DNA from: a candidate division CPR2 bacterium GW2011_GWC2_39_35
GTDB taxonomy: Bacteria; Patescibacteriota; CPR2
Length of the DNA stretch: 64,000 bases
Assembly: GCA_000995065.1 (NCBI GenBank)
Contig: LBWX01000002.1
Span: 159,708-223,707 of the forward strand
Direction: 5' to 3'
Positions 2,908 through 62,610 of this stretch are shown here, in pieces (the first letter of the stretch is position 1; each line of letters starts with the position of its first letter). Under the pieces are notes generated by a model. That model was not told where the DNA came from. It searched no databases and worked only from the letters and a program-made list of their open reading frames with translations. The translations under genes and the position numbers were made by a program.

Positions 2908-3028
2908 AATCAGATGTCGGTTCCCCGATATTTAATAAGTAAGTGTAAGAATGTCTCAGACATCGAATATAAGTTGTAAGCTGTTCTTTTTTCTTGTAAG
3001 ATGTCTGTAAATAACGAGAGGACTACTT

Positions 3029-10334: not shown

Positions 10335-11567
10335 ATGAGAACGGTTAATCCTCCTCCTAAATCTTTTAAAAGATATAGAAAAGTTATACTTCCGGAATTT
10401 TATGAAGAGATTTTAGAATTAGCGAGTTCACTGCAAGATACTCGCATAATTTATGTTAATTCTACGTCTTATGGCGGCGGCGTGGCCGAGATTTTAAGAA
10501 CCCAAATCCCTCTCCTTAGAGATTTGGGTATTGATGCGGTCTGGAAAGTGATGGCGGCTGATCCCGGTTTTTTTGATGTTACCAAGGCAATACATAACGC
10601 TCTTCAGGGAAATAAAGACATCAACCTTTTGGAGTCCTCGAAAGATATTTATGAAATTACAAATGCGATTAATGCAAGGATTCTAAGCGCCAGTGACTGG
10701 GACATTTTATACATTCATGATCCACAGCCTTTGGCAATCCCTCTTTATCTTAATGGCAAAGGGATAAATGCGCTTTGGCGGTGTCATATAGAGACCAGCT
10801 TAGAGAACGAACAGATCTGGGATTATCTAAATCCTCTGTTTAAAAAATATAGGGCTGCCGTTTTTTCAATGGATGATTATACAAAGGTTGACGTGAAGGT
10901 AAAGAAAAAATTTGTTATTCCTCCAGCAATTGACCCATTATCATTTAAAAACCGAACGATGCCGCAATTGAGGGCTAGAAGAATAATAAGAAAGCTTGGT
11001 ATTGATGTAAAGAGACCGCTCGTCACGCAGATTTCGCGCTTTGATCCGTGGAAAGACCCCTTGGGAGTTATTAAGGCTTACAGACAAGCGAAAAGAGAGA
11101 TTCCCGAACTTCAGCTTGTTCTTGTTGGCTCCCAGGCTAATGATGATCCTGAAAGTTTTATTATATTCGAAGAGTTGGTTCGGCTTTCTAAGCGTGATAA
11201 GGATATAAAAATCTTTGGCAATCTTACTGATTCCCAGGTTAATGCTTTTCAGAGAGCGTCAGACGTCATCATTCAAAAATCGATTAAAGAGGGCTTTGGA
11301 CTTACAGTTTCAGAAGCATTATATAAGGAAACACCTGTTATTGGCGGAAATGTAGGTGGCATTAGAAAGCAAATCATTGAAGGCGAGGATGGTTATCTGG
11401 TAGGAAGCATTAAAGAATGCGCCATAAAGATCGTTGAACTTGTTTCTAACCCAGATCTTAGGTTAGAAATGGGAAAAAGAGGCCGCAAAATCGCTCGTGA
11501 TCGTTTTTTGCTGCCGCGCCTGATTCGAGATGAGCTTCGGGTATTTAAATATTTACTAGCCAACTAA
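10335..11567 (+). CDS. GT4-family glycosyltransferase resembling trehalose glycosyltransferring synthase (TreT-like)
   Basis: N-terminal ...VNSTSYGGGVAEILRTQIPLLRDLGIDAVWKV... and C-terminal GT-B motif SIKEGFGLTVSEALYKETPVIGGNVGGIRKQIIEGEDGYL. Length ~410 aa matches TreT. Confidence 0.6.
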   Translation: MRTVNPPPKSFKRYRKVILPEFYEEILELASSLQDTRIIYVNSTSYGGGVAEILRTQIPLLRDLGIDAVWKVMAADPGFFDVTKAIHNALQGNKDINLLESSKDIYEITNAINARILSASDWDILYIHDPQPLAIPLYLNGKGINALWRCHIETSLENEQIWDYLNPLFKKYRAAVFSMDDYTKVDVKVKKKFVIPPAIDPLSFKNRTMPQLRARRIIRKLGIDVKRPLVTQISRFDPWKDPLGVIKAYRQAKREIPELQLVLVGSQANDDPESFIIFEELVRLSKRDKDIKIFGNLTDSQVNAFQRASDVIIQKSIKEGFGLTVSEALYKETPVIGGNVGGIRKQIIEGEDGYLVGSIKECAIKIVELVSNPDLRLEMGKRGRKIARDRFLLPRLIRDELRVFKYLLAN

Positions 11568-11861
11568 ACTTACGCACCCGGTGCGTTAGCGCAGGCTAGA
11601 CGATAATTATAAAAAGGATAACTAAAGTGAGAATTAGTAAACTAAATGTTGTGCTTCTCCTTTTTCTTTGATTTCGGTAGATGTACTGAGGCGGCTGAAA
11701 TTCGTAGATAAGAGACGTAAGATGTCTCACAATTCCCCCTTTTTTTTATTTTTATTTTTGCTTTAACCGTACATTAACAAGCCATAAATGGCTTTACCTC
11801 ATTTAGAGTTACAAAATCTGAATCTTTAGAGAAAGAAAAATTGTAATAATTATTAATTAAG

Positions 11862-11926
11862 CCTAAACTTCTGGGTAGTCCGGAGACATTTTTTCTCCGG
11901 ACTACCCAGAAGTTTAGGCTGAAGAG
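11862..11926. terminator. Long perfect hairpin (27-bp stem, 8-nt loop) between convergent GT4 gene and histidine-kinase gene
   Basis: AGCCTAAACTTCTGGGTAGTCCGGAGA cattttt(t) TCTCCGGACTACCCAGAAGTTTAGGCT, followed by an A/T-rich run on both sides. Confidence 0.5.
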
Positions 11927-11931
11927 CCTTT

Positions 11932-13341
11932 TTATTTTTGCTTATTTTGAGAAGTCAGCTTGCCTTCATTCTTCGGAAAAGTAATTGTAAATTGAGAACC
12001 AACGCCTTTTATGCTTTCTACCATAATCTTGCCTTGCATCATCTCTATCAGCTGTTTTGTGATCCAGAGCCCAAGGCCGGTGCCGGGGATATTTTCGGTG
12101 TTTTCGTTTCTAATGCGATAAAACTTGCTAAATAGCTGCTTTCTCTCATCTTCATCCATTCCAATCCCGGTGTCTCTTACCAAAATGCTATTCCCTTTTT
12201 CGTTACTTGTAATACCTACTTCTACTTCGCCTTCCTTGGTATATTTTACGGCGTTACCAATAATGTTTATTAAGATTTGCTCAAATTTTGCTTTGTCCAA
12301 ATTGGAAAATAGTGGTTTATCGGCAAAATTTTCCTTAATATGAAGCCCCTTTTCTTTAGCCTGGTTCTTAAATTCTCCCGTAATTTTTCGGCCAATCTCT
12401 AAAACATTTACCTCACTAAGCTCAAGCTTTATTCGATTTTGCTCAATTCGGGAAACATCAAGGAGATCGTTAACCAAATAATTTAAGCGGTTGGTGCTAT
12501 CCACAATTTGCTCGTGCATATTGGTAATCTCCTCTTTTTTAAGCCTCGAAAAATCTTCAACTAAGATCGAGGCATTGCCTCGGATAATGGTTAGGGGCGT
12601 TCTTAACTCGTGAGAAGCGGTGGAAATAAAGTCATCTTTCATTTGATCGACTTCTTTTAGTTTTTCAAACAAAACTGCATATTGAAAAAGACGCGAATTG
12701 CCGAGTATCAGTAAAATAACAGCGATTATTGTTAGGACCAGAACAATTCCGGCAACCGTAACCGTGTTGGCGATATTAATGTCCGCATTCTTGGTGGAGA
12801 CCCAGATATTGGCGAGATAAACCTCGTTGCCATCTTTGTTTACAATTGGGGTACGAACAGCCCAGAGCCTTTCGTCGAAACTAATCTCCTGACCGGCGAT
12901 CTCCATCCTTTTATCGGCTCTCATTTCGGTTGAGATCTCGTTTTTGTCGTACCAGGTGATGGCGAGCATAGTTTTGTCTTGGCCCTCCACTAGCCTCCCT
13001 TTGTCTTCGGGGTTTAAGCTTGCCACAATCTTAAAGTCATCATTTATCTTTTTTATGATCTGAATGTTTTTGACATCTTTAGTAAATTTAGCGTAATTGG
13101 TGATGACTTCTTCTACTTCATTGGGCTCGTCGACATAGTTTAAAAGAGCTACATTTAAACTATGAGCGGCAAGCTGAGCTTTGTATCGTAGCTCTTCATC
13201 AAGATTAACCTGCATTTTTGTAATGATAATGTAGGTGTTAAGAACAATAAGAACCGGAATTAGAATAACGACAAGTAGACTGTAAATCACCTGCTTGTTG
13301 TTTCTTAAAAAGGAAAGTTGTTTAGCTGGTTGTATTGGCAT
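11932..13341 (-). CDS. Sensor histidine kinase (two TM helices, extracytoplasmic sensor domain, HisKA + HATPase_c)
   Basis: H-box STASHELRTPL, N-box NIIGNAVKYT, and G-boxes DTGIGM / GTGLGLWITKQLIEMMQGKI. Confidence 0.8.
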   Translation of the reverse strand: MPIQPAKQLSFLRNNKQVIYSLLVVILIPVLIVLNTYIIITKMQVNLDEELRYKAQLAAHSLNVALLNYVDEPNEVEEVITNYAKFTKDVKNIQIIKKINDDFKIVASLNPEDKGRLVEGQDKTMLAITWYDKNEISTEMRADKRMEIAGQEISFDERLWAVRTPIVNKDGNEVYLANIWVSTKNADINIANTVTVAGIVLVLTIIAVILLILGNSRLFQYAVLFEKLKEVDQMKDDFISTASHELRTPLTIIRGNASILVEDFSRLKKEEITNMHEQIVDSTNRLNYLVNDLLDVSRIEQNRIKLELSEVNVLEIGRKITGEFKNQAKEKGLHIKENFADKPLFSNLDKAKFEQILINIIGNAVKYTKEGEVEVGITSNEKGNSILVRDTGIGMDEDERKQLFSKFYRIRNENTENIPGTGLGLWITKQLIEMMQGKIMVESIKGVGSQFTITFPKNEGKLTSQNKQK

Positions 13342-18109: not shown

Positions 18110-18772
18110 TTAAACGATTATTTTAAGTTCGGTTTTGCCTGTTTCTAAGTCAACTATGGCGAAGGTAGATTGACGGCCAAAGTGGGAGGCAATTTCGCCG
18201 GGGTTTAAAAGTAGGCTGCATTGCCTATTATTATCATCATCCCCCGATCGGGTCGAGGGCGGGCTCTGAAATTGATTCAGGATTCTATCTTGAAAATGGG
18301 GAGATTCTAAATCTTGTTCTAAATGACGAATTGATTGGGATGATAGACGCATTTGCTCATGACATATCATCTTTATCCAGGGGGTATGGGTGTGCCCGTA
18401 AAATACAAAATCATAGGCGCCCGATTGAGCCATGTCTTTTGCTCTTTGGGGATAATGGGTGAATCCGATGGTCTTGCCGGCAAGCTTAATTTCGCCCAGA
18501 TCCCTAAAAACTGTTAAATTTTTGTATTCATTTTGAGCGTAAAATATCTCATCCGGCTCTCTTTCCGCATTTCCGAGGCAAGAAAAGACGTGCAAATTTG
18601 TTTGTGCCAGACGCATGACAGTTTTCTTAGTCGCAATGTCCCCGCAGCAGATGATAGTGTCAATTTTACACTTACTAATTTCTTCTAGAGTTTTATTTAG
18701 TTTGTCCATTCTGTCATGGATATCCGAGATCACGGCGATTTTCATGAGTATAAGTATAGCTAATTTCGGCAA
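18110..18772 (-). CDS. Metallophosphoesterase (YfcE/Vps29-like calcineurin-fold phosphodiesterase) carrying an in-frame ~47-aa repeat-derived insertion
   Basis: VISDIHD, CCGDI, GNAE and YGHTHTPW metal-binding motifs. The segment HEQMRLSSQ...DDDNNRQ interrupts the region between GHTH and the NPG motif. Confidence 0.7.
   Translation of the reverse strand: MPKLAILILMKIAVISDIHDRMDKLNKTLEEISKCKIDTIICCGDIATKKTVMRLAQTNLHVFSCLGNAEREPDEIFYAQNEYKNLTVFRDLGEIKLAGKTIGFTHYPQRAKDMAQSGAYDFVFYGHTHTPWIKMICHEQMRLSSQSIRHLEQDLESPHFQDRILNQFQSPPSTRSGDDDNNRQCSLLLNPGEIASHFGRQSTFAIVDLETGKTELKIIV
18221..18361. repeat. Palindromic dispersed-repeat copy (GTCATYC-type family) inserted in-frame within the metallophosphoesterase CDS
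   Basis: About 50 nt (atcccccgatcgggtcgagggcgggctctgaaattgattcaggattct) is ~88% identical to 26127-26176. The CTGAAnTTGATnCAGGAT module also occurs at 22586-22604. Confidence 0.55.
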
Positions 18773-19262
18773 TATTAAAAGCCCGTTTGAAGCTTTTATG
18801 CATGATCTTTAGTAGACATGTCTTTATTTAACAAAAGAAAAAAGGTTGCCTTTGCAGACCCGGATGGGGTAAAGCTACACGGCAACCTTTTCATTTGTTC
18901 TCAGCTTATCTGCCTCTTCTTACGGTGAGGTAAACAGCTGGATGTGAGCTGCGATCACGGAGTTCGGGTGGATAGTAATCCACCGTTTGCTTTGAGCGAA
19001 TGTGTGGTTTCTTTGCTTGTTGTTTTTTGATATTGCCGGTTGTCAATGATAGTGTCGTCATGTGATCATCTCCTGGTTCGATTTCTGTCTTTTGGGTGAT
19101 ACTTGTCTTGCTGTAAATTTATCCGGGTCTAACTGAATCGAAGACACTATATCATAAATACCCTTATTTGTCAATGGTTTTTTGGCTCTTTCCCTTTTTT
19201 GAATTTTTGGTAATAAAAAAATCCATTTGTATGGAACTTGAAATCATTTATAAAGTGAATCG

Positions 19263-19295
19263 ATCGCCGTAGGGGTACCGTTGCTACGGCGATCA
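19263..19295. terminator. Hairpin terminator downstream of the 19308..19979 (-) gene
   Basis: GATCGCCGTAG gggtaccgtt GCTACGGCGATC, an 11-bp perfect stem. Confidence 0.45.
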
Positions 19296-19307
19296 TTGTC
19301 TTTCGGC

Positions 19308-19979
19308 TTATTCTGGCTTGGGGAGAAAGACCTCATTAACGTATTTCTTCGCTACCTGTTGTAAATCAGATCTATTCCAGATGGAATCACCAGATAGCTC
19401 TGCACGAAGCGCTCCGCCAAAGAGACGAACTACAGTTTGGATGTCCTCTTCGGACCATTTTCGATCCTTTGGTAATGATGGTCGTGCTGTTTGTGCCGTC
19501 CTGGTCATGTTTTCAAAAATGTTTTTAACATACCAGGCTGTGGTTGGCCTTAAGGCGCCTAGACTTGTCTCAACACTAACCTCATCTTCAGTCCGATATG
19601 CTTTTTCGATGAGGATATCGATGACCTTGTCGTGAATCTGCCGGCGAATATCGTTGGTTAACTCGTCTTGCCCATAATCACCCTCCATATGAATGGTGAT
19701 AGAGCAATCACAGAAATCAATCTCGAATATAGACTCTATTTCGTATATGGCATTTAGGATCTCTGCATTAAGATCACCAACACCTAAAGTGCCGTCAGCA
19801 TCGATCTCTTCGCCAAGCCATTTTCGATAACTATAGAGGGCGTCAATTGGTTCCATGAGAGACCCTTGAAGATAGAACTCTGTCTCTTCGACAGGACCAA
19901 GGCCTAATCCCGAATAACCCTTCATTTTCCTCGTTTCCATTATGATGTTTGGGATATCCATACTGTTATTAGACTTCAC
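19308..19979 (-). CDS. Hypothetical protein (223 aa), no recognisable domain
   Basis: Long ORF with balanced composition, flanked by repeat elements and a large non-coding gap. No motif recognised. Confidence 0.45.
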   Translation of the reverse strand: MKSNNSMDIPNIIMETRKMKGYSGLGLGPVEETEFYLQGSLMEPIDALYSYRKWLGEEIDADGTLGVGDLNAEILNAIYEIESIFEIDFCDCSITIHMEGDYGQDELTNDIRRQIHDKVIDILIEKAYRTEDEVSVETSLGALRPTTAWYVKNIFENMTRTAQTARPSLPKDRKWSEEDIQTVVRLFGGALRAELSGDSIWNRSDLQQVAKKYVNEVFLPKPE

Positions 19980-20098: not shown

Positions 20099-20124
20099 CG
20101 TCATCCCCGTGCAGACGGGGAGGC
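20099..20124. repeat. Short GTCATYC-type hairpin element
   Basis: cGTCATCCCCGtgcagaCGGGGAGG has the same GTCAT + palindrome architecture as copies at 26203-26232 and 51193-51238. Confidence 0.4.
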
Positions 20125-20317
20125 ACGATGCTTCATTATCTCTCAAGACTTTCTGGAATTGTCACCCAAGAGTGACCTTATAAACAAAATATATAAAAAG
20201 CCCCGTCTTAAGGGGCTCTTTATACTTTATTCTTAATTCTAGTGAGAGGTAGTTCTCGATTTCACTTCGTTTCACTCGAACAATAAAACCTATTAGCTCA
20301 TTAGGCCATCCGACTAC

Positions 20318-22453: not shown

Positions 22454-22576
22454 GTAGGCTGATGGTCTAATAGCGTATGGCCTGGTTTTCTCTATATAGG
22501 CTATTTAGACTATTCGACCATATGGCCATTAGGGGCTAGGACTCAAAACAAGAAGTGAAACTGACAGAATATATGC

Positions 22577-22657
22577 TGTCATCCTGAACTTGATTCAGGA
22601 TCCCTCGCGTTATATGGAGAAGATTCCGGATCAAGTCCGGAATGACATTAATTCCGG
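22577..22657. repeat. MITE-like palindromic element in the rpsO-pnp intergenic region
   Basis: Left arm TGTCATCCTGAACTTGATTCAGGATCC, right arm ATTCCGGATCAAGTCCGGAATGACATT. These are imperfect inverted copies of each other separated by ~20 nt. Confidence 0.55.
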
Positions 22658-25872: not shown

Positions 25873-26124
25873 GGTAGGTTAATTGGTTAATAGGCTAACG
25901 GGCGAATAGGTTTTTAGATTCCCTCTCCCTTGAGTCGAGAGGGTTAGGGTGAGGGGGCTAAACAATTCAAAGTTCAAAATGCAGCCCTAAATGCCAAGGG
26001 TGTATCAGATACAGATAATGTTTATAAGAACAGAGAGACAATCTTTTTAAGCAAAACCTTGCGAATGCGAGGCAAAATTCAAAAGTTAAGAGGCTCAACT
26101 CACTGGGCCTCTTTTGATTTACCG

Positions 26125-26232
26125 TTATCCCCCAATCGGCTCGAGGGCAGGCTCTGAACTTGATACAGGATCTTCTCCATTTATCACTTCTGCCATCTTG
26201 TCGTCATTCCCGACCCGATCGGGAATCCAGGA
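26125..26232. repeat. Composite palindromic dispersed-repeat copy (GTCATYC-type family)
   Basis: Module atcccccaatcggctcgagggcaggctctgaacttgatacaggatc is homologous to 18232-18280. The terminal hairpin is GTCATTCCCGAcccgaTCGGGAATCCAGG. Confidence 0.5.
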
Positions 26233-26286: not shown

Positions 26287-26934
26287 ATGTTCAAACTTAT
26301 CATTTTTGATTTAGACGGCACTTTAGTGGATAGTACACAGCTTTCGAAGATGACCTATTTTGAAGTTCTTCGTAAAATGGGTTATGACCCGGAACTATAT
26401 TGGGAAACACATCGGAAGTCATCGGGGCTTCCCTATGAGGAGCAATTAAGGCGTGCAAATCCCGAACTGGTAGTTAGAAAAGACGAATACTTGAGACTGT
26501 ATAAAGAGGCGCATAAGACGCTTATTGGAAAGGCGGTCGTAGAATACCCCGGTGTTGACGCCATGCTAAAGTCAATTACAATTCCAAAAGCCATCATGAC
26601 TGCAAAAATCGGTTCTTCGGCGAATGTTATGATAAAGGATATCTTAAAAGTAGACTTCGACTATATCTCGACTCACGAAATGAGACAACACCACAAACCG
26701 AGTCCCGAACCTTTGCTTGAAATCTGTGAGAGATTTAACGTAAAGCCGGAAGAAGCGATTTATGTCGGAGATGGTGTTCACGATGTCGAATGTGCTAAAA
26801 ATGCCGGCGTTGTTTCCGTAGCGGTAGCGTGGGGCAACTACTATACAGCCGAAGAACTCGAAAACTTAAAGCCGGATTTTCTCGTTTATAAGCCGGAGGA
26901 GATCCTAGAGATCCTAAACAGAATTTCTAATTGA
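26287..26934 (+). CDS. HAD-superfamily hydrolase (phosphoglycolate phosphatase/beta-PGM-like subfamily IA)
   Basis: Motif I IFDLDGTLVDS, and motif IV-like VGDGVHDVECAKNAG. Confidence 0.7.
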   Translation: MFKLIIFDLDGTLVDSTQLSKMTYFEVLRKMGYDPELYWETHRKSSGLPYEEQLRRANPELVVRKDEYLRLYKEAHKTLIGKAVVEYPGVDAMLKSITIPKAIMTAKIGSSANVMIKDILKVDFDYISTHEMRQHHKPSPEPLLEICERFNVKPEEAIYVGDGVHDVECAKNAGVVSVAVAWGNYYTAEELENLKPDFLVYKPEEILEILNRISN

Positions 26935-26973
26935 CCTAATTTCTAACCCCTATAAAAACCTATTTAAATAGCT

Positions 26974-29116: not shown

Positions 29117-29226
29117 AAATTTCTAATAACCAACGACAAATTATCAAAAATATTTTTAGACATTAGGATTTTAGAAATTGAGGTTTGATTAGAAATTAGT
29201 AATTAGAGCCATTAGAAATTAAATCC
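29117..29226. repeat. Family-Y AT-rich inverted-repeat element (attagaaattaggaattagag motif)
   Basis: gattagaaattagtaattagagccattagaaatt closely matches 62574-62608 and, in reverse complement, 56478-56520 and 62391-62430. Confidence 0.5.
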
Positions 29227-39292: not shown

Positions 39293-40369
39293 TCATTTTG
39301 TCAGTTCAATGATGGCATCCAGTATAATTTTTGTTCCGATTACGAACTTATCGATTTCTAAGTATTCTCTAGTGGTGTGATAATCGTTCCCCGATGCCCC
39401 CGTTGTGATACACTTAATGCCATGTCGGTTAAAGATATTAGCATCAGTTAAGCCCCCGGTTGAAGTAAAGTTATATTTAATGCCGTTTTGCCGCCCGCAT
39501 TCTACAAGTAGTTTAACCATTGGGTCTGTTTCTTGATGTTTGTAGGCTTTGCCGCGCAAGTTAGCTTGAATATCAATTGTTCCGCCATATTTTAAAGCCG
39601 TTTCTTTAAAAGTTTCGATTAACTTTTTTGTATAAAATTCAAATTTTTTATCATTTCTGCTTCTGACTTCCGCTTCAAGAGTCACTTTTTCTGGTATAAT
39701 GTTTCTGGCCATACCACCGTTTATAAGGCCCACGTTGGAAGTCGTTTCAAAATCAATGCGTCCGAGTTTGAGTTTAGATATAGCTTTGGCGGCAATTTGT
39801 ATGGCATTAATACCGTTTTCGGGGCGAGTCCCCGAATGTGCGGCTTTCCCCGTTATCTCGATATCAAAATGCATAAGAGATGGCTCGTTAGATACGATAT
39901 CGCCGGGTTTGCTATCTAAGTTTATGGACTGTTTGGCTTTAAGCTTAGTAAAATCAAGATTTGAGGAGCCGATAGGTCCAATCTCTTCTTTCACCGTGAA
40001 AACAACTTCCAATTCAACCTTAAGACCATTTTCTTTTATTGAGGTTAAAATTTCTAGAATGGCTGAAACACCGCTTTTATTATCTGCACCTAAAATTGTA
40101 GTGCCATCGGTTTTGATGATATTGCCTTCGATGATTGGTTTAATGCCTTTGCCGGGTTTTACGGTATCTGTGTGGGCAGCAAGCATGAGTTTGGGATTTG
40201 GGTCATTGGAACAAATTAGGTTTCCAATTTTATCAATATCGGTTTTAAATCCCAAATCATCCATTTCTTTCTTAAGATAAGCGATGATTTCTTGTTCCTC
40301 GCCGGATTCACTGTCGATTTGAACCAGGGTTAGAAAGGTTTGAATTAGTCTTTCACGATTAATGTCCAT
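39293..40369 (-). CDS. M20-family metallopeptidase, peptidase T (tripeptidase)-like
   Basis: Metal ligands AAHTDTV and GADNKSGVSAILE (PepT-like H-x-D-T-V and D-N/D-K-x-G motifs). Length 358 aa. Confidence 0.6.
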   Translation of the reverse strand: MDINRERLIQTFLTLVQIDSESGEEQEIIAYLKKEMDDLGFKTDIDKIGNLICSNDPNPKLMLAAHTDTVKPGKGIKPIIEGNIIKTDGTTILGADNKSGVSAILEILTSIKENGLKVELEVVFTVKEEIGPIGSSNLDFTKLKAKQSINLDSKPGDIVSNEPSLMHFDIEITGKAAHSGTRPENGINAIQIAAKAISKLKLGRIDFETTSNVGLINGGMARNIIPEKVTLEAEVRSRNDKKFEFYTKKLIETFKETALKYGGTIDIQANLRGKAYKHQETDPMVKLLVECGRQNGIKYNFTSTGGLTDANIFNRHGIKCITTGASGNDYHTTREYLEIDKFVIGTKIILDAIIELTK

Positions 40370-48724: not shown

Positions 48725-48732
48725 AGGAGAAA

Positions 48733-48846
48733 ATGTCAAATTACAAAGCTCAAATGCCAAATCAAATCCTAAGTTCAAATGTCAAATTATTTGATATTAA
48801 GTCATTTAAAATTCATTTGGTATTTTGATTTTGACATTTGATATTT
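48733..48846. repeat. Family-X ~115-bp inverted-repeat element (aaatgtcaaat...tttgacattt) between pilB and pilT
   Basis: Homologous along its length to 51261-51373 and 57698-57815. Terminal arms TGTCAAAT / ATTTGACA. Confidence 0.55.
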
Positions 48847-48864
48847 TTAACTTCGGGAGGGAAT

Positions 48865-51192: not shown

Positions 51193-51238
51193 AGTCATTC
51201 TCGCGAAGGCGGGTCCTACGACTCGTACGAGAATCCAG
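51193..51238. repeat. GTCATYC-type hairpin element
   Basis: GTCATTCTCGcgaaggcgggtcctacgactcgtaCGAGAATCCAG. Same terminal motif as 26203-26232. Confidence 0.45.
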
Positions 51239-51260
51239 TGCAGGTGAAAAAAGGAGTTTA

Positions 51261-51373
51261 ATGTCAAATGTCAAAGCTCAAATTTCAAATCAAGTTCTAA
51301 TGTTAAATGCTTTAAATTGGTCATTAAGTCATTTGTCATTCATTTGATATTTGTAATTTGGCATTTGGATTTA
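51261..51373. repeat. Family-X inverted-repeat element directly upstream of the major pilin gene
   Basis: atgtcaaatgtcaaagctcaaat...gtcatt...catttgatatttg...ttggcatttggattt aligns with 48733-48846 and 57698-57815. Confidence 0.55.
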
Positions 51374-51393
51374 ATAATATCTAGGAGGGAATA

Positions 51394-52767: not shown

Positions 52768-53390
52768 AACAGGTTTTAAATAAAAGAGGCTATACGTTAA
52801 TAGAAATTGTGGTAGTGATGGCTTTAATTGCAGTAACAACGCTTTTTGCGTTGCTGCCGGCACTTACCAATCGCCGAAGTCAATTAGAATTCGAGACTCG
52901 GGCGCACGAGGTCTTAGGGGAAATTAAGTATGCCCAAAGCTTGGCCAGAGGTGTCATTTGGGAAAATACCGGCGGCTCTAATTTTTCCCCTAAAGCAGTT
53001 TACGCTAAGCTTTATAATGAAGACGATGTTTTGAAATTAGAAATAGTTGGCTATGACAGGGATGCCGATCCATCATCTCCCGTTCATAAAGCCCTGACCT
53101 TTAAGGATCTTAAGATCGATAACTTGAGGGCAGGCGCTATAGATAAGGGTTCTGGCGACACTCTATTCGCCTGCTTCTCCGTGCCGACGGGATTTGCCTC
53201 CGACTATATTGGCAGCGAAGGCAGCTTGGCTTCCAAGTGGGTTTATACGCCGGCTCCGTTTAATTATGCCGACCTGGCGGAACACGAAGACGTTACTTTG
53301 ACGCTAGGAGACGATGAGTTTAAAATCGACTTAAGCTTAAATTTTTCTTCCGGAGATATCTATATAGATAAAGGAGCGGACTTAAAATGA
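52764..53390 (+). CDS. Minor pilin / pseudopilin (GspH/FimT-like)
   Basis: Prepilin leader MKQVLNKRG|YTLIEIVVVMALIAV. Confidence 0.6.
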   Translation: MKQVLNKRGYTLIEIVVVMALIAVTTLFALLPALTNRRSQLEFETRAHEVLGEIKYAQSLARGVIWENTGGSNFSPKAVYAKLYNEDDVLKLEIVGYDRDADPSSPVHKALTFKDLKIDNLRAGAIDKGSGDTLFACFSVPTGFASDYIGSEGSLASKWVYTPAPFNYADLAEHEDVTLTLGDDEFKIDLSLNFSSGDIYIDKGADLK

Positions 53391-54427: not shown

Positions 54428-55471
54428 ATGAGCCAAAAAAATAAAGGTGCTGCCTTGCTCTGGGCCATTATATTTATCGGCGCCTTATCTATTGTTATCG
54501 CTAACTTAGCCGTTATGACTTATAACGAATCCCGCCTAACAAGCAATTCCGATCTTTCGTATAAGGCTTATGCGGCAGCCCAATCCGGGATTGATTACGG
54601 CTTGTTTAAAATAAGGGAGGAGATCGCAGAAAGCGGTATTCAGAATTTTGACAGTTCGGTAGCTCCACTTGTCTACACTTTCTGGAATGGTACTCCTATT
54701 ATCGATGAAGATGAGCAGGAAACCAAGGTGGAAGTAACCTGGACAAAAGAATTAGATCTAAGTAATCCGTGTCCTGATTGTAAGCCAAAAATCACGGTTG
54801 ATAGCGTGGCGACGGTTACTGCCGGCGAAAAAACCGCCAAAAGAAGACTCCAGGTGATCCACGATTATAAAAGGACAATTCAGGCGGTAACGTTTGAAAA
54901 TGGTAATGCCGACATTAACACGCTTAACACCGAGTTAAAGGATCGTTTGAATGCTATTGTAACTGTTGATATCTATAATCCGCCCTCAGTAAATCCGCCT
55001 GCAATACCGTTGGAAGATAGAGGCGATAAGCCGGAATTTAAGCTGACTTTTAATAAAAAAGGCGGCATTCCGATCGAGATGGTAATTAATGCTGATAAGT
55101 ATAACGGGGCGGTGCTTCAGTCTGATAAGAACTACCGTTGGCGCTTTAATTATGTCGGTGGCGCCGGAGTGCTGGCCACTTTAGAAGAAGCAAGTGATAT
55201 TGATATTGATCTTAATCCTGGCACAGTATGTGACGTTAACCTTAACCCTGGTACAAAATGCGAGAGGCGCTGGAAATGTGGGGCCGAAGAATCATTTTTC
55301 GAAGAGGATAAGAATACTGATTTCTGGACGAAAAATCAAAATGAACTCGCCTCGATTAGCATTAACCCTAATGGTACTGTTGCCGGCGATCAGAATAACC
55401 ACTATCTCTTAGTAATTAATGGTCAGATAGACAATATTGTTGGAATCGGCAGAGAATCGATCCAGAATTAG
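54428..55471 (+). CDS. PilX-like minor pilin / pilus tip-associated protein
   Basis: PilX_N-type N-terminus KNKGAALLWAIIFIGALSIVIANLAV followed by a large beta domain. Confidence 0.55.
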   Translation: MSQKNKGAALLWAIIFIGALSIVIANLAVMTYNESRLTSNSDLSYKAYAAAQSGIDYGLFKIREEIAESGIQNFDSSVAPLVYTFWNGTPIIDEDEQETKVEVTWTKELDLSNPCPDCKPKITVDSVATVTAGEKTAKRRLQVIHDYKRTIQAVTFENGNADINTLNTELKDRLNAIVTVDIYNPPSVNPPAIPLEDRGDKPEFKLTFNKKGGIPIEMVINADKYNGAVLQSDKNYRWRFNYVGGAGVLATLEEASDIDIDLNPGTVCDVNLNPGTKCERRWKCGAEESFFEEDKNTDFWTKNQNELASISINPNGTVAGDQNNHYLLVINGQIDNIVGIGRESIQN

Positions 55472-56433
55472 CTGCGGCGTCGGCCGTGGAAAGCTTGGTG
55501 GACTTCTTTTAGCTGCTTATTGGTAAGATGAGTGTAAATTTGCGTTGTCGTAATAGAGCTATGCCCCAGCATCGATTGGACCGATCTAATGTCGGCGCCA
55601 TTTATAAGCAAATCGGTTGCAAAACTATGGCGTAGCGTATGAGGCGTCACTTTTTTTACGATTCCGGCGGCTCTGGCATAGGCATTGACGATTCGCTGCA
55701 CGCTTCTTGACGTTAGGCGCAAATATTCGCCGTCTTCGATCTCATCCTTGGAGCCGCTATATCTAATAAATAGCGGCTTAAAATTATCCGCTCTTAGCTT
55801 TAGATACTCATTTATCCAGTGCTTGGCTCCGTCAGACATAAAAACGACCCGGTCTTTAGAGCCTTTTCCTCTTACCATAAATTCGCCTCGATCTAGGTTT
55901 ACTTGGGTTCTATTTAGACCAACAAGCTCCGAAACCCTGAGGCCGGTGGAGAACAATAGCTCTAATATTGCTTTATCTCTTACGGAAATAATCTTATTTG
56001 TCTCTGTTTGTTTCTGCTTTAAAGGAGCGTCCATAAGCCTTACCACTTCCTCAAATTCTAAAAACTCAACTTGCTTTCTTTTGGCGTCTCCAAGCTCGAT
56101 CTTTTCGGCGGATAAACTCCTCACATCTCTTTTGGCCAAATATTTAAGGAAAGCTCTAAGGGCGATGACATGATAGTTTTGAGTAATTTTTTTTAAAGTA
56201 TTGCCTTTTTGGTCTGTCATCCGGTTTAAATGCAATCTATAAGAACGCACTAAGTCCATATCGATTTTTTGAGGACCAAAATCGTCGCCCTCTTTACTTT
56301 CGGCAAATTCTAAGAAGCGTCTCAGATAGTGCTCGTAGTTTAAAATAGTAAGCTCCGAGTGATTTTTTTCTAATTCACAGTATTCTAAAAAATCGGAAAT
56401 TAAGTCGGCGGTGGTCATATGCCCATGATACAA
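55468..56433 (-). CDS. Tyrosine site-specific recombinase, XerC/XerD family
   Basis: C-terminal catalytic region LRHSFATDLLINGADIRSVQSMLGHSSITTTQIYTHL with catalytic Tyr. N-terminal SAM-like core-binding domain. Confidence 0.8.
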   Translation of the reverse strand: MYHGHMTTADLISDFLEYCELEKNHSELTILNYEHYLRRFLEFAESKEGDDFGPQKIDMDLVRSYRLHLNRMTDQKGNTLKKITQNYHVIALRAFLKYLAKRDVRSLSAEKIELGDAKRKQVEFLEFEEVVRLMDAPLKQKQTETNKIISVRDKAILELLFSTGLRVSELVGLNRTQVNLDRGEFMVRGKGSKDRVVFMSDGAKHWINEYLKLRADNFKPLFIRYSGSKDEIEDGEYLRLTSRSVQRIVNAYARAAGIVKKVTPHTLRHSFATDLLINGADIRSVQSMLGHSSITTTQIYTHLTNKQLKEVHQAFHGRRRS

Positions 56434-56477
56434 GATTTCTTTGGTCAGATCAAAGTTTAAAATATGAACAGTAAATA

Positions 56478-56598
56478 AATATCTAATTCCTAATTACTCT
56501 AATTGACCTAATAAAATCCCAATGACAAAATGTCTAAAGTTCTTGTTTGGAAATTGGGATTTATTTAGAATAATTAGAAATTAGGTAAATTAGACATT
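56478..56598. repeat. Family-Y inverted-repeat element in the divergent xer/rsmH promoter region
   Basis: Arms atctaattcctaattactctaattgacctaataaaatccc and gggatttatttagaataattagaaattaggtaaattagacat flank a ~45-bp core. Confidence 0.5.
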
Positions 56599-57697: not shown

Positions 57698-57815
57698 AAA
57701 TGTCAAATGACAAAGCTCAAATGTCAAATCAATTTTAAAAAATCTAAATGTTAAAAATTTAGGCATTTAGTCATTAATTATTCATTTGAGATTTAGATTT
57801 TGACATTTGGATTTA
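57698..57815. repeat. Family-X inverted-repeat element between convergent rsmH and BON-domain genes
   Basis: aaatgtcaaatgacaaagctcaaatgtcaaatcaa...catttgagatttagattttgacatttggattt. Third copy of the family. Confidence 0.55.
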
Positions 57816-57820
57816 ACAAA

Positions 57821-60231: not shown

Positions 60232-60357
60232 CTACTCCCTTCCCACTAAGACACGATATAATATTCTTCGACCTTGTGGAGAAGTACATTAATGTAATTC
60301 TCCACTCCGTTTCACTTCGCTCGAATAATATATCACGGAATGGCGGGAAGGGAGTAG
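60232..60357. repeat. ~125-bp nested palindromic element
   Basis: Outer 13-bp perfect inverted repeats CTACTCCCTTCCC / GGGAAGGGAGTAG enclose inner inverted repeats (gtggagaa / ttctccac; ttcgac / cgctcgaa). The inner motif gtttcacttcg...ctcgaa recurs at 20262-20284. Confidence 0.45.
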
Positions 60358-60536: not shown

Positions 60537-61400
60537 ATGGCAGTAGCAGTAATTAATGAACTAGGAGTAAACAGTAACAAGAGCAACAAACTAGAGGGCG
60601 CAAGATCGGTATTGATCACATCGGCTTTTATGGCCGATAGGGTAGCTCCAGGGATTGCCCAGGAAGATGGAACATGGCCTTATGTGTTTGCGGCTATCGA
60701 TCCTGACTTCGCGGATTTTTTTGGCGAGTTGGTAGACAATCATAGCTCTTTTCTGGGTAAATCGGGGGGCGAACAAGGGTTTCTGCTAGATATGATCACT
60801 CATGTTGTTGCAAGCAAAGAAAAGGTTGAGCGCATTGTTATTGCAACCACGGCTGATAGCGAAGTCGAGGCAAGATCATTAAGAGATCTTATTGTGAGGC
60901 GTCTCCGAATCTCGCCTCGAATAGTTGCAGTGGAAGTGAGAGTTTTTGAAATCAGCGAGGCGAACCATCGCATGATGCTCGTATGCTGCATCGATGATAG
61001 ATTCATCGAAGAAGCAATGAATCATGTCAAATGCATAGAGCGACAGAAGAACAAAGGATCTGATAATAAAGATTCTGAAATCTGCATCGTTGCCAAACCT
61101 GGCAGCACGCTTGTTTTTGCTGGGCGTATAGGGCAGGAAATACAGTTTGGTTTGATTGACCACTTGGTAGAGTTTGTTGCCAAGTCCTCTATTGACACTC
61201 TTTGCGCCATTGCTCACCGACGGACATGTGCCGCTTACGATTTCATCGATTGCACTGATGAAAATGGGATTGCTGATCTCTTCTCTTTTAAGCGGTATAT
61301 CGAGTCACAGTGCGCGGCCTCTGGCAAGGAAGTGAAAGTGATTATCCTGGTTCAGGATGAAGACGGCTTCTCGGATCCGGTGGAAAAGAATCTGCTTTAG
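60537..61400 (+). CDS. Hypothetical protein with CxDxR and H-x3-C motifs (paralog A of a tandem pair)
   Basis: 287 aa. Contains ...MLVCCIDDRFIEE... and ...IAHRRTCAAY.... The N-terminus (MAV.V...DG..PYV) is alignable with the downstream gene. Confidence 0.5.
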   Translation: MAVAVINELGVNSNKSNKLEGARSVLITSAFMADRVAPGIAQEDGTWPYVFAAIDPDFADFFGELVDNHSSFLGKSGGEQGFLLDMITHVVASKEKVERIVIATTADSEVEARSLRDLIVRRLRISPRIVAVEVRVFEISEANHRMMLVCCIDDRFIEEAMNHVKCIERQKNKGSDNKDSEICIVAKPGSTLVFAGRIGQEIQFGLIDHLVEFVAKSSIDTLCAIAHRRTCAAYDFIDCTDENGIADLFSFKRYIESQCAASGKEVKVIILVQDEDGFSDPVEKNLL

Positions 61401-61557: not shown

Positions 61558-62388
61558 ATGGCCGTTAAGGTAAAGATAAGCCCATTAGAGCTTAGAGAAG
61601 AAATCAAAAAAAACCGGGAGATAAGTCCGGTAAGAATAATCCTTACAACTCCCGAGCTAAGTGCAAAACTTGCCTTAGAGGCATTCGAGAAAGATGGCCG
61701 TCATCCTTATGTAGTTTCTAATTTTACAATAAGCGAAGGTTTTTTAAGGGAAAAAGAAGATGGCGTTAAAAGCTATGGTCCAACCCAGCTTAAAATTGCG
61801 CTTCATGCCGAAACCATCAAATATATTGATATTGTTTTGCCAAAACACGGCTATGGTTATAAGAAAAGAGAAGCTTCCGAAGACGCTTTAGCTCTAAAAG
61901 AAATGATAGAAAAAGCGATCGGGAAAAGGGCAATTAAAGTGTCGGCCAAAGTGGAAAATATGGAGATAGATTATTCAAAGTTTGATATTGTTATTTATCA
62001 GTGTGTAGATTATCGATTCTTTCTAGAAAATGTGTCTAATTTGATTCTCGAAAAAGGCATGATACCGCTTGTTATTAGTAGTGCCGGTGCTGTTGCTATC
62101 TTAAAGGATAGGGTGAATCCTGATATGAAAAAAAGCATTAAAGATCAAATAATTAGAGCTTTTAAATTATCTGGAGCGAAGCTGTTTCTGATTCTAAATC
62201 ATGGCAATCAGTGTGGCGGTTATAAAAATTGCGGTTGTAGCGGGGCCGAGGCTCTCTCGGATGTGGCGATCGTAAAAGAAATGGCCACAAAAATCCTAAA
62301 GGACGGCGGTTTTTACGGCGTCCAGGTTGTCTCCAGATACCAAACTCTGGATGCATATTATAGTGTGGAGTTTAGAGATATTACATAA
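61558..62388 (+). CDS. Hypothetical protein with beta-carbonic-anhydrase-like motifs (paralog B of tandem pair)
   Basis: 276 aa. Contains VIYQCVDYRFF (C-x-D-x-R) and, 66 residues later, LILNHGNQCGGY (H-x-x-C-G-G), as in the beta-CA zinc site. Confidence 0.5.
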   Translation: MAVKVKISPLELREEIKKNREISPVRIILTTPELSAKLALEAFEKDGRHPYVVSNFTISEGFLREKEDGVKSYGPTQLKIALHAETIKYIDIVLPKHGYGYKKREASEDALALKEMIEKAIGKRAIKVSAKVENMEIDYSKFDIVIYQCVDYRFFLENVSNLILEKGMIPLVISSAGAVAILKDRVNPDMKKSIKDQIIRAFKLSGAKLFLILNHGNQCGGYKNCGCSGAEALSDVAIVKEMATKILKDGGFYGVQVVSRYQTLDAYYSVEFRDIT

Positions 62389-62390
62389 GT

Positions 62391-62610
62391 AAATTTCTAA
62401 TTCCTAATTATTCTAATTAATCTAATAAAGTTCCAATTACGAAATAAATTTTCAATTGTACCATTTTTTAATCTTTATTGAATTTACAATGACGCAATTT
62501 TCAAACATATAACAACGAAAAAATAGTTTGAAGATTGACTACTTAAAAATTGAAAATTAAAATAATTGGGATTTGATTAGAAATTAGGAATTAGAGTAAT
62601 TAGAAATTTT
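62391..62610. repeat. Family-Y element: ~40-bp terminal inverted repeats flanking a 130-bp AT-rich core
   Basis: Left aaatttctaattcctaattattctaattaatctaataaag, right gggatttgattagaaattaggaattagagtaattagaaattt. These are reverse complements of each other. Confidence 0.5.

What the first reader, a model, noticed from the sequence alone, without database searches (positions are those of the whole stretch)
22577..22657. Family of short GTCATYC-type palindromic elements scattered through intergenic spacers
At least five loci share a modular architecture of GTCAT(T/C)C + perfect short palindrome + GGA(A/T)(T/C)C(A)GG. The loci are 18221-18361, 20099-20124, 22577-22657, 26125-26232 and 51193-51238. 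Examples are GTCATCCTGAACTTGATTCAGGATCC, GTCATTCCCGAcccgaTCGGGAATCCAGG, GTCATCCCCGtgcagaCGGGGAGG, ATTCCGGAtcaagTCCGGAATGAC and GTCATTCTCG...CGAGAATCCAG. The longer copies are composites of two or three such hairpins. This looks like a genome-specific MITE/REP-like family that can fold into stable RNA or DNA hairpins.
Basis: seen in the sequence. Interest (0 to 1): 0.55.

Follow-up and report, generated by a model that had tools for sequence, protein, structure and literature searches.

The report
Cross-phylum GTCAT hairpin repeats in CPR2
The short palindromes are real mobile hairpin repeats, but they are not specific to this genome: they belong to a family found in dozens of bacterial phyla (Neisseria dRS3/NTS, "Ssn-related motifs") that a 2025 paper linked to small single-strand DNA nucleases.

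Summary
All five loci carry the described modules. GTCATYC alone is not enriched (12 found, 10.9 expected), but GTCAT followed directly by a perfect palindrome of at least 7 bp is: 5 found against 0.146 expected, 0 of 1000 shuffles. The window comes from an uncultured groundwater bacterium, candidate division CPR2 GW2011_GWC1_41_48.

The family is not genome-specific. The 25-mer at 22622-22646 (GTCATTCCGGACTTGATCCGGAATC) recurs exactly, loop included, in at least 120 genomes from about 20 phyla. A covariance model built only from foreign copies scores three window copies at 42-44 bits.

The layout is YGTC, then a palindrome starting with AT, then C. This matches Neisseria dRS3/NTS and the "Ssn-related motifs" of Chenal et al. 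2025, which SsnA-type GIY-YIG nucleases bind and cut as single-stranded DNA. In 80 metagenomic loci with Ssn-like genes, 63 had such a hairpin within 150 nt and 37 had them on both sides.

Insertion is shown. The 18221-18361 locus is a 141-nt in-frame insertion in a YfcE-family phosphodiesterase gene, absent from all seven aligned homologues. A syntenic relative has short spacers without elements.

No nuclease gene was found in the 82 kb I could reach, so the partner in this genome is unresolved. The published search pattern misses these copies.

The parts
22578..22603 (+). Intact hairpin, left half of the doublet: GTC ATCCTGAA cttga TTCAGGAT CC
   Evidence: CM R1 scores it 44.1 bits, E 3e-10. 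As ssDNA the doublet folds with z -2.8.
22622..22646 (-). Intact hairpin, right half of the doublet: GTC ATTCCGGA cttga TCCGGAAT C. It is identical to the cross-phylum consensus 25-mer.
   Evidence: CM R1 scores it 42.6 bits.
22578..22646 (.). A 69-nt inverted doublet (GTCAT...ATGAC ends, 19-21 nt between the hairpins) in the rpsO-pnp spacer. The arrangement is the same as hairpin-ssnA-hairpin units, but with no gene inside.
   Evidence: Compare the gene-flanking pairs, and the gene-less pair in L049 at 2946-3010.
26203..26231 (+). Intact hairpin: GTC ATTCCCGA cccga TCGGGAAT CCAGG
   Evidence: CM R1 scores it 42.3 bits. The same stem class flanks a GIY-YIG gene in L189.
26124..26181 (+). Decayed module: GTTATCC, a 24-nt extra segment, TGAACTTGATACAGGATC, then the TTCTCCAT tail shared with the 22.6 kb doublet
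   Evidence: (D6, I14). It does not fold better than shuffles.
20100..20123 (+). Tetraloop-type hairpin with a decayed 3' flank: GTCA TCCCCGT gcag ACGGGGA GG. It lies between the pnp terminator and the next gene.
   Evidence: z -3.6. Compare GTC ATCCCCGC gcag GCGGGGAT CC in L049.
51194..51238 (+). Rearranged copy: GTCATTCTCGCGAAGGCGGG...CGAGAATCCAG. The outer 7-bp stem encloses 24 nt. The 5' half matches the canonical NTS.
   Evidence: z -2.95. NTS consensus from PMC11893778.
18224..18364 (-). A 141-nt (47-codon) in-frame insertion in the YfcE/MJ0936-family phosphodiesterase gene (18110-18745, minus strand). It is made of three decayed modules: (-)18337-18363, (-)18303-18327 and (+)18236-18285.
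   Evidence: It is homologous to the 22.6 kb doublet. The hairpins have decayed (R1 scores of only 10-11 bits).

Best explanation
These are copies of a non-autonomous, hairpin-forming repeat family that occurs across bacterial phyla. It is known in Neisseria as dRS3/NTS and more broadly as Ssn-related motifs.

Each unit is 5'-Y-GTC, then an 8-bp palindrome that starts with AT, a 4-5 nt loop, and a C directly after the palindrome.

Shown here:
- The window holds 3 intact pentaloop copies, 1 nearly intact tetraloop copy and at least 5 decayed modules.
- They reached their positions by insertion. One insertion is in-frame inside an enzyme gene, as with Rickettsia palindromic elements.
- The same sequences occur in many phyla.
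- Such hairpins bracket small GIY-YIG genes in inverted orientation.

From the literature (PMC11893778): SsnA, a 94-aa GIY-YIG protein, binds the hairpin only as single-stranded DNA and cuts a few nucleotides 5' of the GTC. The GTC is needed for cutting and the C after the palindrome for binding. In Neisseria this lowers transformation by DNA that carries the motif.

Inferred for this CPR2 genome: when the DNA is single-stranded (replication, or uptake of transforming DNA), the intact copies fold. They then serve as binding and cutting sites for an Ssn-type nuclease encoded elsewhere in the genome, or acquired and later lost. The inverted doublet (GTCAT...ATGAC) is the likely mobile unit, a gene-less derivative of the hairpin-ssnA-hairpin cassette. 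The copying mechanism itself is not known, here or in the literature.
For: - Enrichment in the window.
- Exact cross-phylum recurrence with a conserved but unconstrained loop, Y at position -1 and C/T-A-G after the motif.
- A second stem class is also widespread.
- A model trained only on foreign copies finds the three window copies at 42-44 bits and nothing else above 14 bits.
- GIY-YIG genes flanked by inverted GTCAT hairpins in L189, L009, L049 and L103. L189 carries the window's ATTCCCGA-pentaloop class on one side and the canonical NTS on the other.
- Of 80 Ssn-like genes, 63 have a hairpin within 150 nt and 37 have them on both sides. Thirty-two of the 208 hairpins in those loci are pentaloop type.
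- The base after the palindrome is C in 203 of 208 hairpins although the search did not require it, and the base before GTC is never G. This matches the determinants reported in PMC11893778.
- Insertion: the 141-nt in-frame insert is absent from 7 aligned homologues. The syntenic relative L131 has spacers of 145, 41 and 37 nt where the window has 378, 414 and 1572 nt, and it has no elements.
Against: - No GIY-YIG ORF exists in the window or in about 9 kb beyond each end. I could not scan the rest of the genome.
- The published SRM pattern matches none of the window copies and only 9% of pentaloop hairpins in Ssn-like loci.
- The paper reports that changing the stem while keeping the hairpin abolishes Neisseria SsnA activity. 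Here the stems differ between copies, so one nuclease may not act on all of them.
- Two CPR GIY-YIG genes of another subfamily (L305, L308) have no such hairpins beside them.
- Only 5 loci were seen in 82 kb, four of them within 8 kb, so the genome-wide copy number is unknown.
Confidence: 0.7

Rival explanations
1. They are REP/REPIN elements mobilised by a RAYT (an IS200-like Y1 tyrosine transposase). That enzyme recognises a conserved 5' tetranucleotide plus a hairpin on single-stranded DNA.
For: The layout is similar: a short conserved 5' motif, a variable palindrome, and inverted doublets like REPINs (PMC3116915 and PMC3337134 listed). The Ssn paper draws the same analogy.
Against: The conserved 5' motif is GTC(AT), not the GTAG/GTGG that I recall for REPs; I did not check this against the REP papers. 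The genes found bracketed by these hairpins are GIY-YIG genes (PF01541). No transposase-like ORF was seen in the window, but I ran no RAYT profile.
Confidence: 0.07
2. They are functional RNA structures of the host genes: terminators, mRNA stabilisers or RNase III sites. An example would be a pnp leader hairpin in the rpsO-pnp spacer.
For: They sit in spacers next to RNA-metabolism genes (rpsO, pnp, RNase J). The hairpins are stable. MITEs such as Correia are known to be processed by RNase III (PMC10969869).
Against: - None has a T tail, and the real terminators lie beside them at 20191-20225 and 26088-26113.
- The orientation relative to transcription is mixed.
- They are absent from the orthologous spacers of the syntenic relative.
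- The identical sequence occurs in unrelated gene contexts in about 20 phyla.
- There is no Rfam match.
- Secondary co-option is not excluded.
Confidence: 0.06
3. They are target sites for a site-specific recombinase of the IS110/Piv type, as Neisseria dRS3 is for a phage recombinase, rather than nuclease sites.
For: The Ssn paper notes that dRS3 is a target of a specific phage recombinase. This role is compatible with the same hairpin family.
Against: No IS110-like gene or prophage is next to any copy. The only integrase-type gene (55468-56433) is 4 kb from the nearest copy and has a Xer-like domain make-up. This reading would not explain how the hairpins themselves multiplied.
Confidence: 0.05
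4. They are unrelated chance palindromes that happen to share a common heptamer.
For: GTCATYC alone is at chance level.
Against: 0 of 1000 shuffles reach the observed count. E is about 1e-9 against an independent model. The composite copies show homology over their full length.
Confidence: 0.01

Closest known systems
Neisseria NTS / dRS3 and Ssn-related motifs (SRM) with SsnA GIY-YIG ssDNA endonucleases (Chenal et al. 2025, PMC11893778)
   Same: A 5' (C/T)GTCAT, a palindrome starting with AT, a C directly after it, and a CAG-like tail. The elements are dispersed and sometimes clustered between genes. Inverted pairs bracket small GIY-YIG genes. The family occurs in many phyla.
   Different: - The window copies have an 8-bp stem ending in A/T with a CTTGA-type pentaloop, not a GC-closed stem with a GNRA-like tetraloop.
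- The published SRM pattern does not match them.
- Stems differ between copies.
- No ssnA was found within reach.
- The host is a CPR bacterium.
Rickettsia palindromic elements (RPE)
   Same: A palindromic repeat of about 140-150 nt inserted in-frame into a conserved metabolic gene, leaving the reading frame open (PMC10969869).
   Different: Only one such case was seen here. I did not test sequence relatedness to RPE families. A Rickettsia genome does carry the same 25-mer hairpin (L181).
REP / BIME / REPIN elements with RAYT transposases
   Same: A short conserved 5' motif plus a hairpin, inverted doublets as the likely mobile unit, and a single-copy partner enzyme that acts on ssDNA hairpins (PMC3116915, PMC3337134).
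   Different: A different 5' motif and a different partner enzyme family (GIY-YIG nuclease rather than HUH Y1 transposase). The mobilisation mechanism is not established.
Neisseria Correia elements / MITEs
   Same: Small non-coding elements with terminal inverted repeats, lying between genes and able to disrupt or extend genes.
   Different: MITEs have defined terminal inverted repeats and target-site duplications derived from an IS. No target-site duplication was found here, and the ends are themselves hairpins.

Membership tests
NTS/SRM hairpins (Ssn-related motifs) | A conserved GTC directly 5' of the palindrome, preceded by a base other than G (HGTC). Needed for cleavage. | tested here: met
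   Copies at 20100, 22578, 22646, 26203 and 51194 have C, T, T, C and A before GTCAT. Decayed copies have GTT or ATC.
NTS/SRM hairpins (Ssn-related motifs) | A palindrome that forms a hairpin in ssDNA, with a C directly after it. This C is the most important base for SsnA binding. | tested here: met
   Three of four perfect hairpins in the window are followed by C. In Ssn-like loci the figure is 203 of 208. ssDNA folding z scores are -2.8 to -3.6.
NTS/SRM hairpins (Ssn-related motifs) | A match to the published degenerate search pattern HGTCWYN(0-2)YYVSBRHN(0-5)WNVSBRGN(0-2)RNCYNB | tested here: not met
   None of the window copies match. The single hit, at 52952, is an unrelated site in a coding sequence. 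The pattern also misses 91% of pentaloop hairpins lying in loci with Ssn-like genes, so this is a limit of the pattern rather than of the family.
NTS/SRM hairpins (Ssn-related motifs) | The same hairpin class is found flanking cd10448-type GIY-YIG (ssnA-like) genes | tested here: met
   L189 has ATTCCCGA-cctga on one side and the canonical NTS on the other. Pentaloop classes also occur among hairpins within 150 nt of the 80 Ssn-like genes. I did not check assignment of those genes to cd10448; they match PF01541 and have the typical length and sequence.
NTS/SRM hairpins (Ssn-related motifs) | An ssnA homologue in the same genome | not testable with these tools
   None was found in the window plus about 9 kb on each side. 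The rest of the genome could not be fetched.
NTS/SRM hairpins (Ssn-related motifs) | Binding and cleavage by an Ssn protein as ssDNA only | not testable with these tools
   This needs biochemistry.
REP/REPIN-RAYT | A conserved GTAG/GTGG-type 5' tetranucleotide, and a RAYT gene flanked by the repeats | tested here: inconclusive
   The 5' motif here is GTCA, not GTAG/GTGG (from memory, not checked against the REP papers). I ran no RAYT profile. The genes seen between the hairpins are GIY-YIG.
MITE | Terminal inverted repeats plus a target-site duplication | tested here: inconclusive
   The doublet ends are inverted (GTCAT...ATGAC). The only candidate duplication at the in-gene copy (ATGATA) is incompatible with the preserved reading frame.
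Rho-independent terminator | A GC-rich hairpin followed by a T run, at a gene's 3' end on the coding strand | tested here: not met
   None of the GTCAT hairpins was called. The terminators are separate hairpins at 20191-20225 and 26088-26113.

The most novel reading that the evidence does not exclude
The pentaloop class (loop CTTGA conserved, stems free to co-vary: 26 different stems in 78 distinct 25-mers) may be a separate branch of the family. It would be recognised through loop and flanks rather than stem sequence, by a nuclease subfamily not yet characterised.

In CPR bacteria, which have tiny genomes and are thought to depend on taking up foreign DNA, such hairpins could mark or restrict incoming single-stranded DNA shared with neighbouring phyla in the same aquifer. 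The same elements can also remodel proteins by in-frame insertion.
Probability: 0.15. Interest if true: 0.7.

Novelty: new member of a known kind. Interest (0 to 1): 0.35.

Why it matters
- It assigns a repeat in an uncultured CPR genome to a recently described hairpin-nuclease system.
- It shows that the published search pattern for that system misses a large, loop-conserved subclass present in many phyla.
- It adds a clear case outside Rickettsia of such an element sitting in-frame inside a conserved enzyme gene.
- For genome annotation, these hairpins are a source of spurious short ORFs and of odd insertions in proteins.
- The biology of the system itself is already published, so the finding extends it rather than opening a new field.

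Tried and rejected
- **Published SRM pattern on the window.** It gave only one unrelated hit.
- **GIY-YIG genes in the window and its extensions.** Motif searches and local iterative HMM searches found none.
- **A CPR2 Ssn gene via a Patescibacteria GIY-YIG query (L214).** None of the 120 listed hits is named CPR2. Two examples of that subfamily lack GTCAT hairpins, so it is probably not the partner family.
- **Strand bias.** I saw no clear rule against GC skew (222 same, 286 opposite) or against the nearest gene (365 sense, 299 antisense).
- **Target-site duplication at the in-gene copy.** The candidate ATGATA does not fit the preserved reading frame.
- **Strain polymorphism.** All six assemblies of this organism are 99.7-100% identical, and the differences are assembly gaps outside the elements.
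- **The ORFan gene 19308-19979, which is flanked by elements.** No family hit, no homologue in two very large libraries, and a low-confidence structure. I found no sign that it is the partner.
- **Rfam.** No match in the window.
- **Literature search for the exact pentaloop sequence.** Nothing relevant.

Full report
**What is in the sequence**

There are three perfect hairpins with 8-bp stems and 5-nt loops:
- 22578-22603(+): GTC ATCCTGAA cttga TTCAGGAT CC
- 22622-22646(-): GTC ATTCCGGA cttga TCCGGAAT C
- 26203-26231(+): GTC ATTCCCGA cccga TCGGGAAT CCAGG

A fourth, at 20100-20123(+), has a 7-bp stem, a gcag loop and a decayed 3' flank. The copy at 51194-51238 keeps GTCATTCTCGCGAAGGCGGG and ...CGAGAATCCAG around a 24-nt interior.

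The two hairpins at 22.6 kb form an inverted doublet of 69 nt with GTCAT...ATGAC ends. The long copies are homologous to it. 22572-22652 aligns with 18213-18332 over its whole length. The copies at 18.2 kb and 26.1 kb share an extra 24-nt segment, AGCCYGCCCTCGASCCGATYGGGG.

**Is it more than chance?**

GTCATYC by itself is at chance level (12 found, 10.9 expected). GTCAT followed directly by a perfect palindrome of at least 7 bp is not. There are 5 sites against a mean of 0.146, with a maximum of 3 in 1000 dinucleotide-preserving shuffles. One of the five, at 40202, is inside a coding sequence and lacks the flanking features, so it is probably chance.

A pattern that fixes only the flanks has three exact matches. 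All three have perfect but different stems. Six of seven modules lie in the 12.9% of the window outside long ORFs. As single-stranded DNA the intact hairpins fold better than shuffles (z -2.8 to -3.6). The composite and in-gene copies do not.

**Source organism and context**

The window is identical to contigs of an uncultured groundwater bacterium named candidate division CPR2 bacterium GW2011_GWC1_41_48.

The elements lie around RNA-metabolism genes:
- after the pnp terminator (20100);
- between rpsO and pnp (22578-22646);
- between the RNase J terminator and a HAD hydrolase gene (26124-26231);
- between a pilC-like gene and a pilin-like gene (51194).

About 9 kb beyond each end of the window holds no further copy. 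So four of the five loci fall within 8 kb of the 82 kb examined.

**Evidence for insertion**

The ORF 18110-18745(-) is a YfcE/MJ0936-family phosphodiesterase of 211 residues. All other homologues are 161-180 residues. In an alignment with seven of them, including the two closest CPR2 relatives, the window protein has exactly 47 extra residues between GHTHTPW and LLNPGE. These correspond to window 18224-18364, 141 nt.

The insert is open in frame and its hairpins have decayed. It resembles the in-frame insertions known for Rickettsia palindromic elements (PMC10969869).

A syntenic relative (L131) has the same gene order. Its spacers are 145 nt (rpsO-pnp), 41 nt (HAD-RNase J) and 37 nt (pnp-yfcE), against 378, 414 and 1572 nt here. 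It has no GTCAT hairpin of this type in 20 kb. I could not define a target-site duplication.

**Not genome-specific**

A scan of one genome per species for GTCATTCCSGANNNNNTCSGGAATC is expected to give about 4 chance hits in the whole collection, by my estimate. The hits came from Patescibacteria (22 loci), Dehalococcoidia, Campylobacterota, Thermodesulfobacteriota, Bacteroidota, Ignavibacteriota, Rickettsiales, Sphingomonadales, Gammaproteobacteria, Nitrospirota, Planctomycetota, Verrucomicrobiota, Spirochaetota, Thermotogota and others.

The five unconstrained loop positions are CTTGA in most hits. The base before GTC is T or C in 123 of 129, and the motif is followed by C/T-A-G. The ATCCTGAA stem of the 22578 copy is also widespread, in 53 viral-contig stretches.

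Across the fetched loci the pentaloop class has 26 different stems in 78 distinct 25-mers, with the loop conserved. A covariance model built only from these foreign sequences scores the three window hairpins at 42-44 bits (E 3e-10 to 1e-9) and nothing else above 14 bits.

**What the family is**

A literature search by sequence led to Chenal et al. 2025 (PMC11893778). They define the Neisseria Transformation Sequence CGTCATTCCCGCGMAVGCGGGAATCYRG, which contains the older dRS3 repeat, and a broader class called Ssn-related motifs.

They show that SsnA, a 94-residue single-domain GIY-YIG protein, binds the hairpin only as single-stranded DNA and cuts a few nucleotides upstream. The three bases before the palindrome (GTC) matter most for cutting. 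The C directly after the palindrome matters most for binding. The motif-carrying DNA transforms less well. Motifs often flank the ssnA gene on both sides, like an insertion sequence.

The window copies have these determinants. Their published degenerate pattern, however, matches none of them.

**Testing the link independently**

- In loci already fetched, GIY-YIG ORFs (PF01541) in L189, L009, L049 and L103 are bracketed by inverted GTCAT hairpins. In L189 one side is the window's ATTCCCGA-pentaloop class and the other is the canonical NTS.
- I took 80 metagenomic loci encoding relatives of these proteins. Of these, 63 have a perfect GTCAT hairpin within 150 nt and 37 have one on both sides, mostly plus-strand upstream and minus-strand downstream.
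- Of the 208 hairpins in those loci, 32 are pentaloop type. The base after the palindrome is C in 203 of 208 although my search did not require it.
- The published pattern matches 55% of tetraloop hairpins but only 9% of pentaloop hairpins.

I therefore file the window copies in this family. The pattern mismatch reflects a limit of the pattern.

**What remains open**

I could not find an Ssn-type gene for this organism. None is in the 82 kb I could read, and the tools did not let me fetch the rest of the genome. A common Patescibacteria GIY-YIG subfamily is probably not the partner, because two examples lack the hairpins.

The paper reports that stem sequence matters for Neisseria SsnA, whereas stems differ between the copies here. 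One enzyme may not serve all copies, or the pentaloop class may be read differently. How the hairpins are copied is unknown. I saw no clear strand rule.

**Rivals**

- REP/RAYT is the closest analogue in logic. The 5' motif differs, and the genes seen between the hairpins are GIY-YIG genes.
- A role as host RNA structures is unlikely as the primary explanation. There are no T tails, real terminators lie alongside, the orientation is mixed, the relative lacks them, and there is no Rfam hit.
- Chance is excluded.

**Verdict**

This is a real, mobile hairpin repeat family, correctly spotted. It is a new member, in a CPR bacterium, of a known and recently explained kind. Two points are modestly new: a loop-conserved subclass that the published search pattern misses, and an in-frame insertion in a conserved enzyme gene.

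Noticed in passing
window 11860-11920: A perfect 27-bp inverted repeat with a 7-nt loop, between convergent ORFs (10335-11567 plus strand, 11932-13341 minus strand). It is unusually long and perfect for a terminator.
   Followed up: no
window 48732-48850, 51260-51377, 57699-57819: Three copies of an AT-rich intergenic repeat of about 110 nt (AATGTCAAATGTCAAAGCTCAAAT...), next to type IV pilus and pilin-like genes. It is unrelated to the GTCAT hairpins. One copy lies just downstream of the 51194 element (D1/D3).
   Followed up: no
window 26922-26961, 29176-29220, 56472-56531, 62386-62445, 62564-62608: A second AT-rich intergenic repeat family (AATTAGAAATTAGTAATTAGAG-like), present in both orientations (D2, D11, I5, I15).
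   Followed up: no
window 18773-19979: A 223-residue ORFan (19308-19979, minus strand) with no homologue in libraries of 5.8 and 1.8 billion proteins and a low-confidence predicted structure. It is followed by a 535-nt spacer with a near-consensus promoter-like site (19174-19146) and what looks like a terminator hairpin near 18845-18905 (read from the sequence), possibly a small gene or sRNA. The whole 1.5 kb is absent from the syntenic relative, and GTCAT elements lie on both sides.
   Followed up: partly
window 60232-60357: An imperfect 35-nt inverted repeat (77% complementary, 56 nt apart) in the spacer before the ORF 60537-61400. No Rfam match.
   Followed up: no
window 40202-40228: GTC ATTGGAA caaattaggt TTCCAAT inside a coding region. 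It meets the GTCAT+palindrome rule but lacks the flanking Y and C and has an AT-rich stem, so it is probably a chance match.
   Followed up: partly
L305 4800-5010 and L308 4800-5010: Two Patescibacteria GIY-YIG genes of another subfamily sit next to what look like tRNA genes (read from the sequence, no tRNA scan run). They are preceded by a different inverted repeat beginning CACCGC...GCGGTG, possibly a separate hairpin-nuclease pairing.
   Followed up: no
L271, L268, L286 (viral contigs): Several contigs carry 4-7 copies of the ATCCTGAA-class hairpin, all on one strand. This suggests local co-orientation even though no global strand rule appeared.
   Followed up: partly
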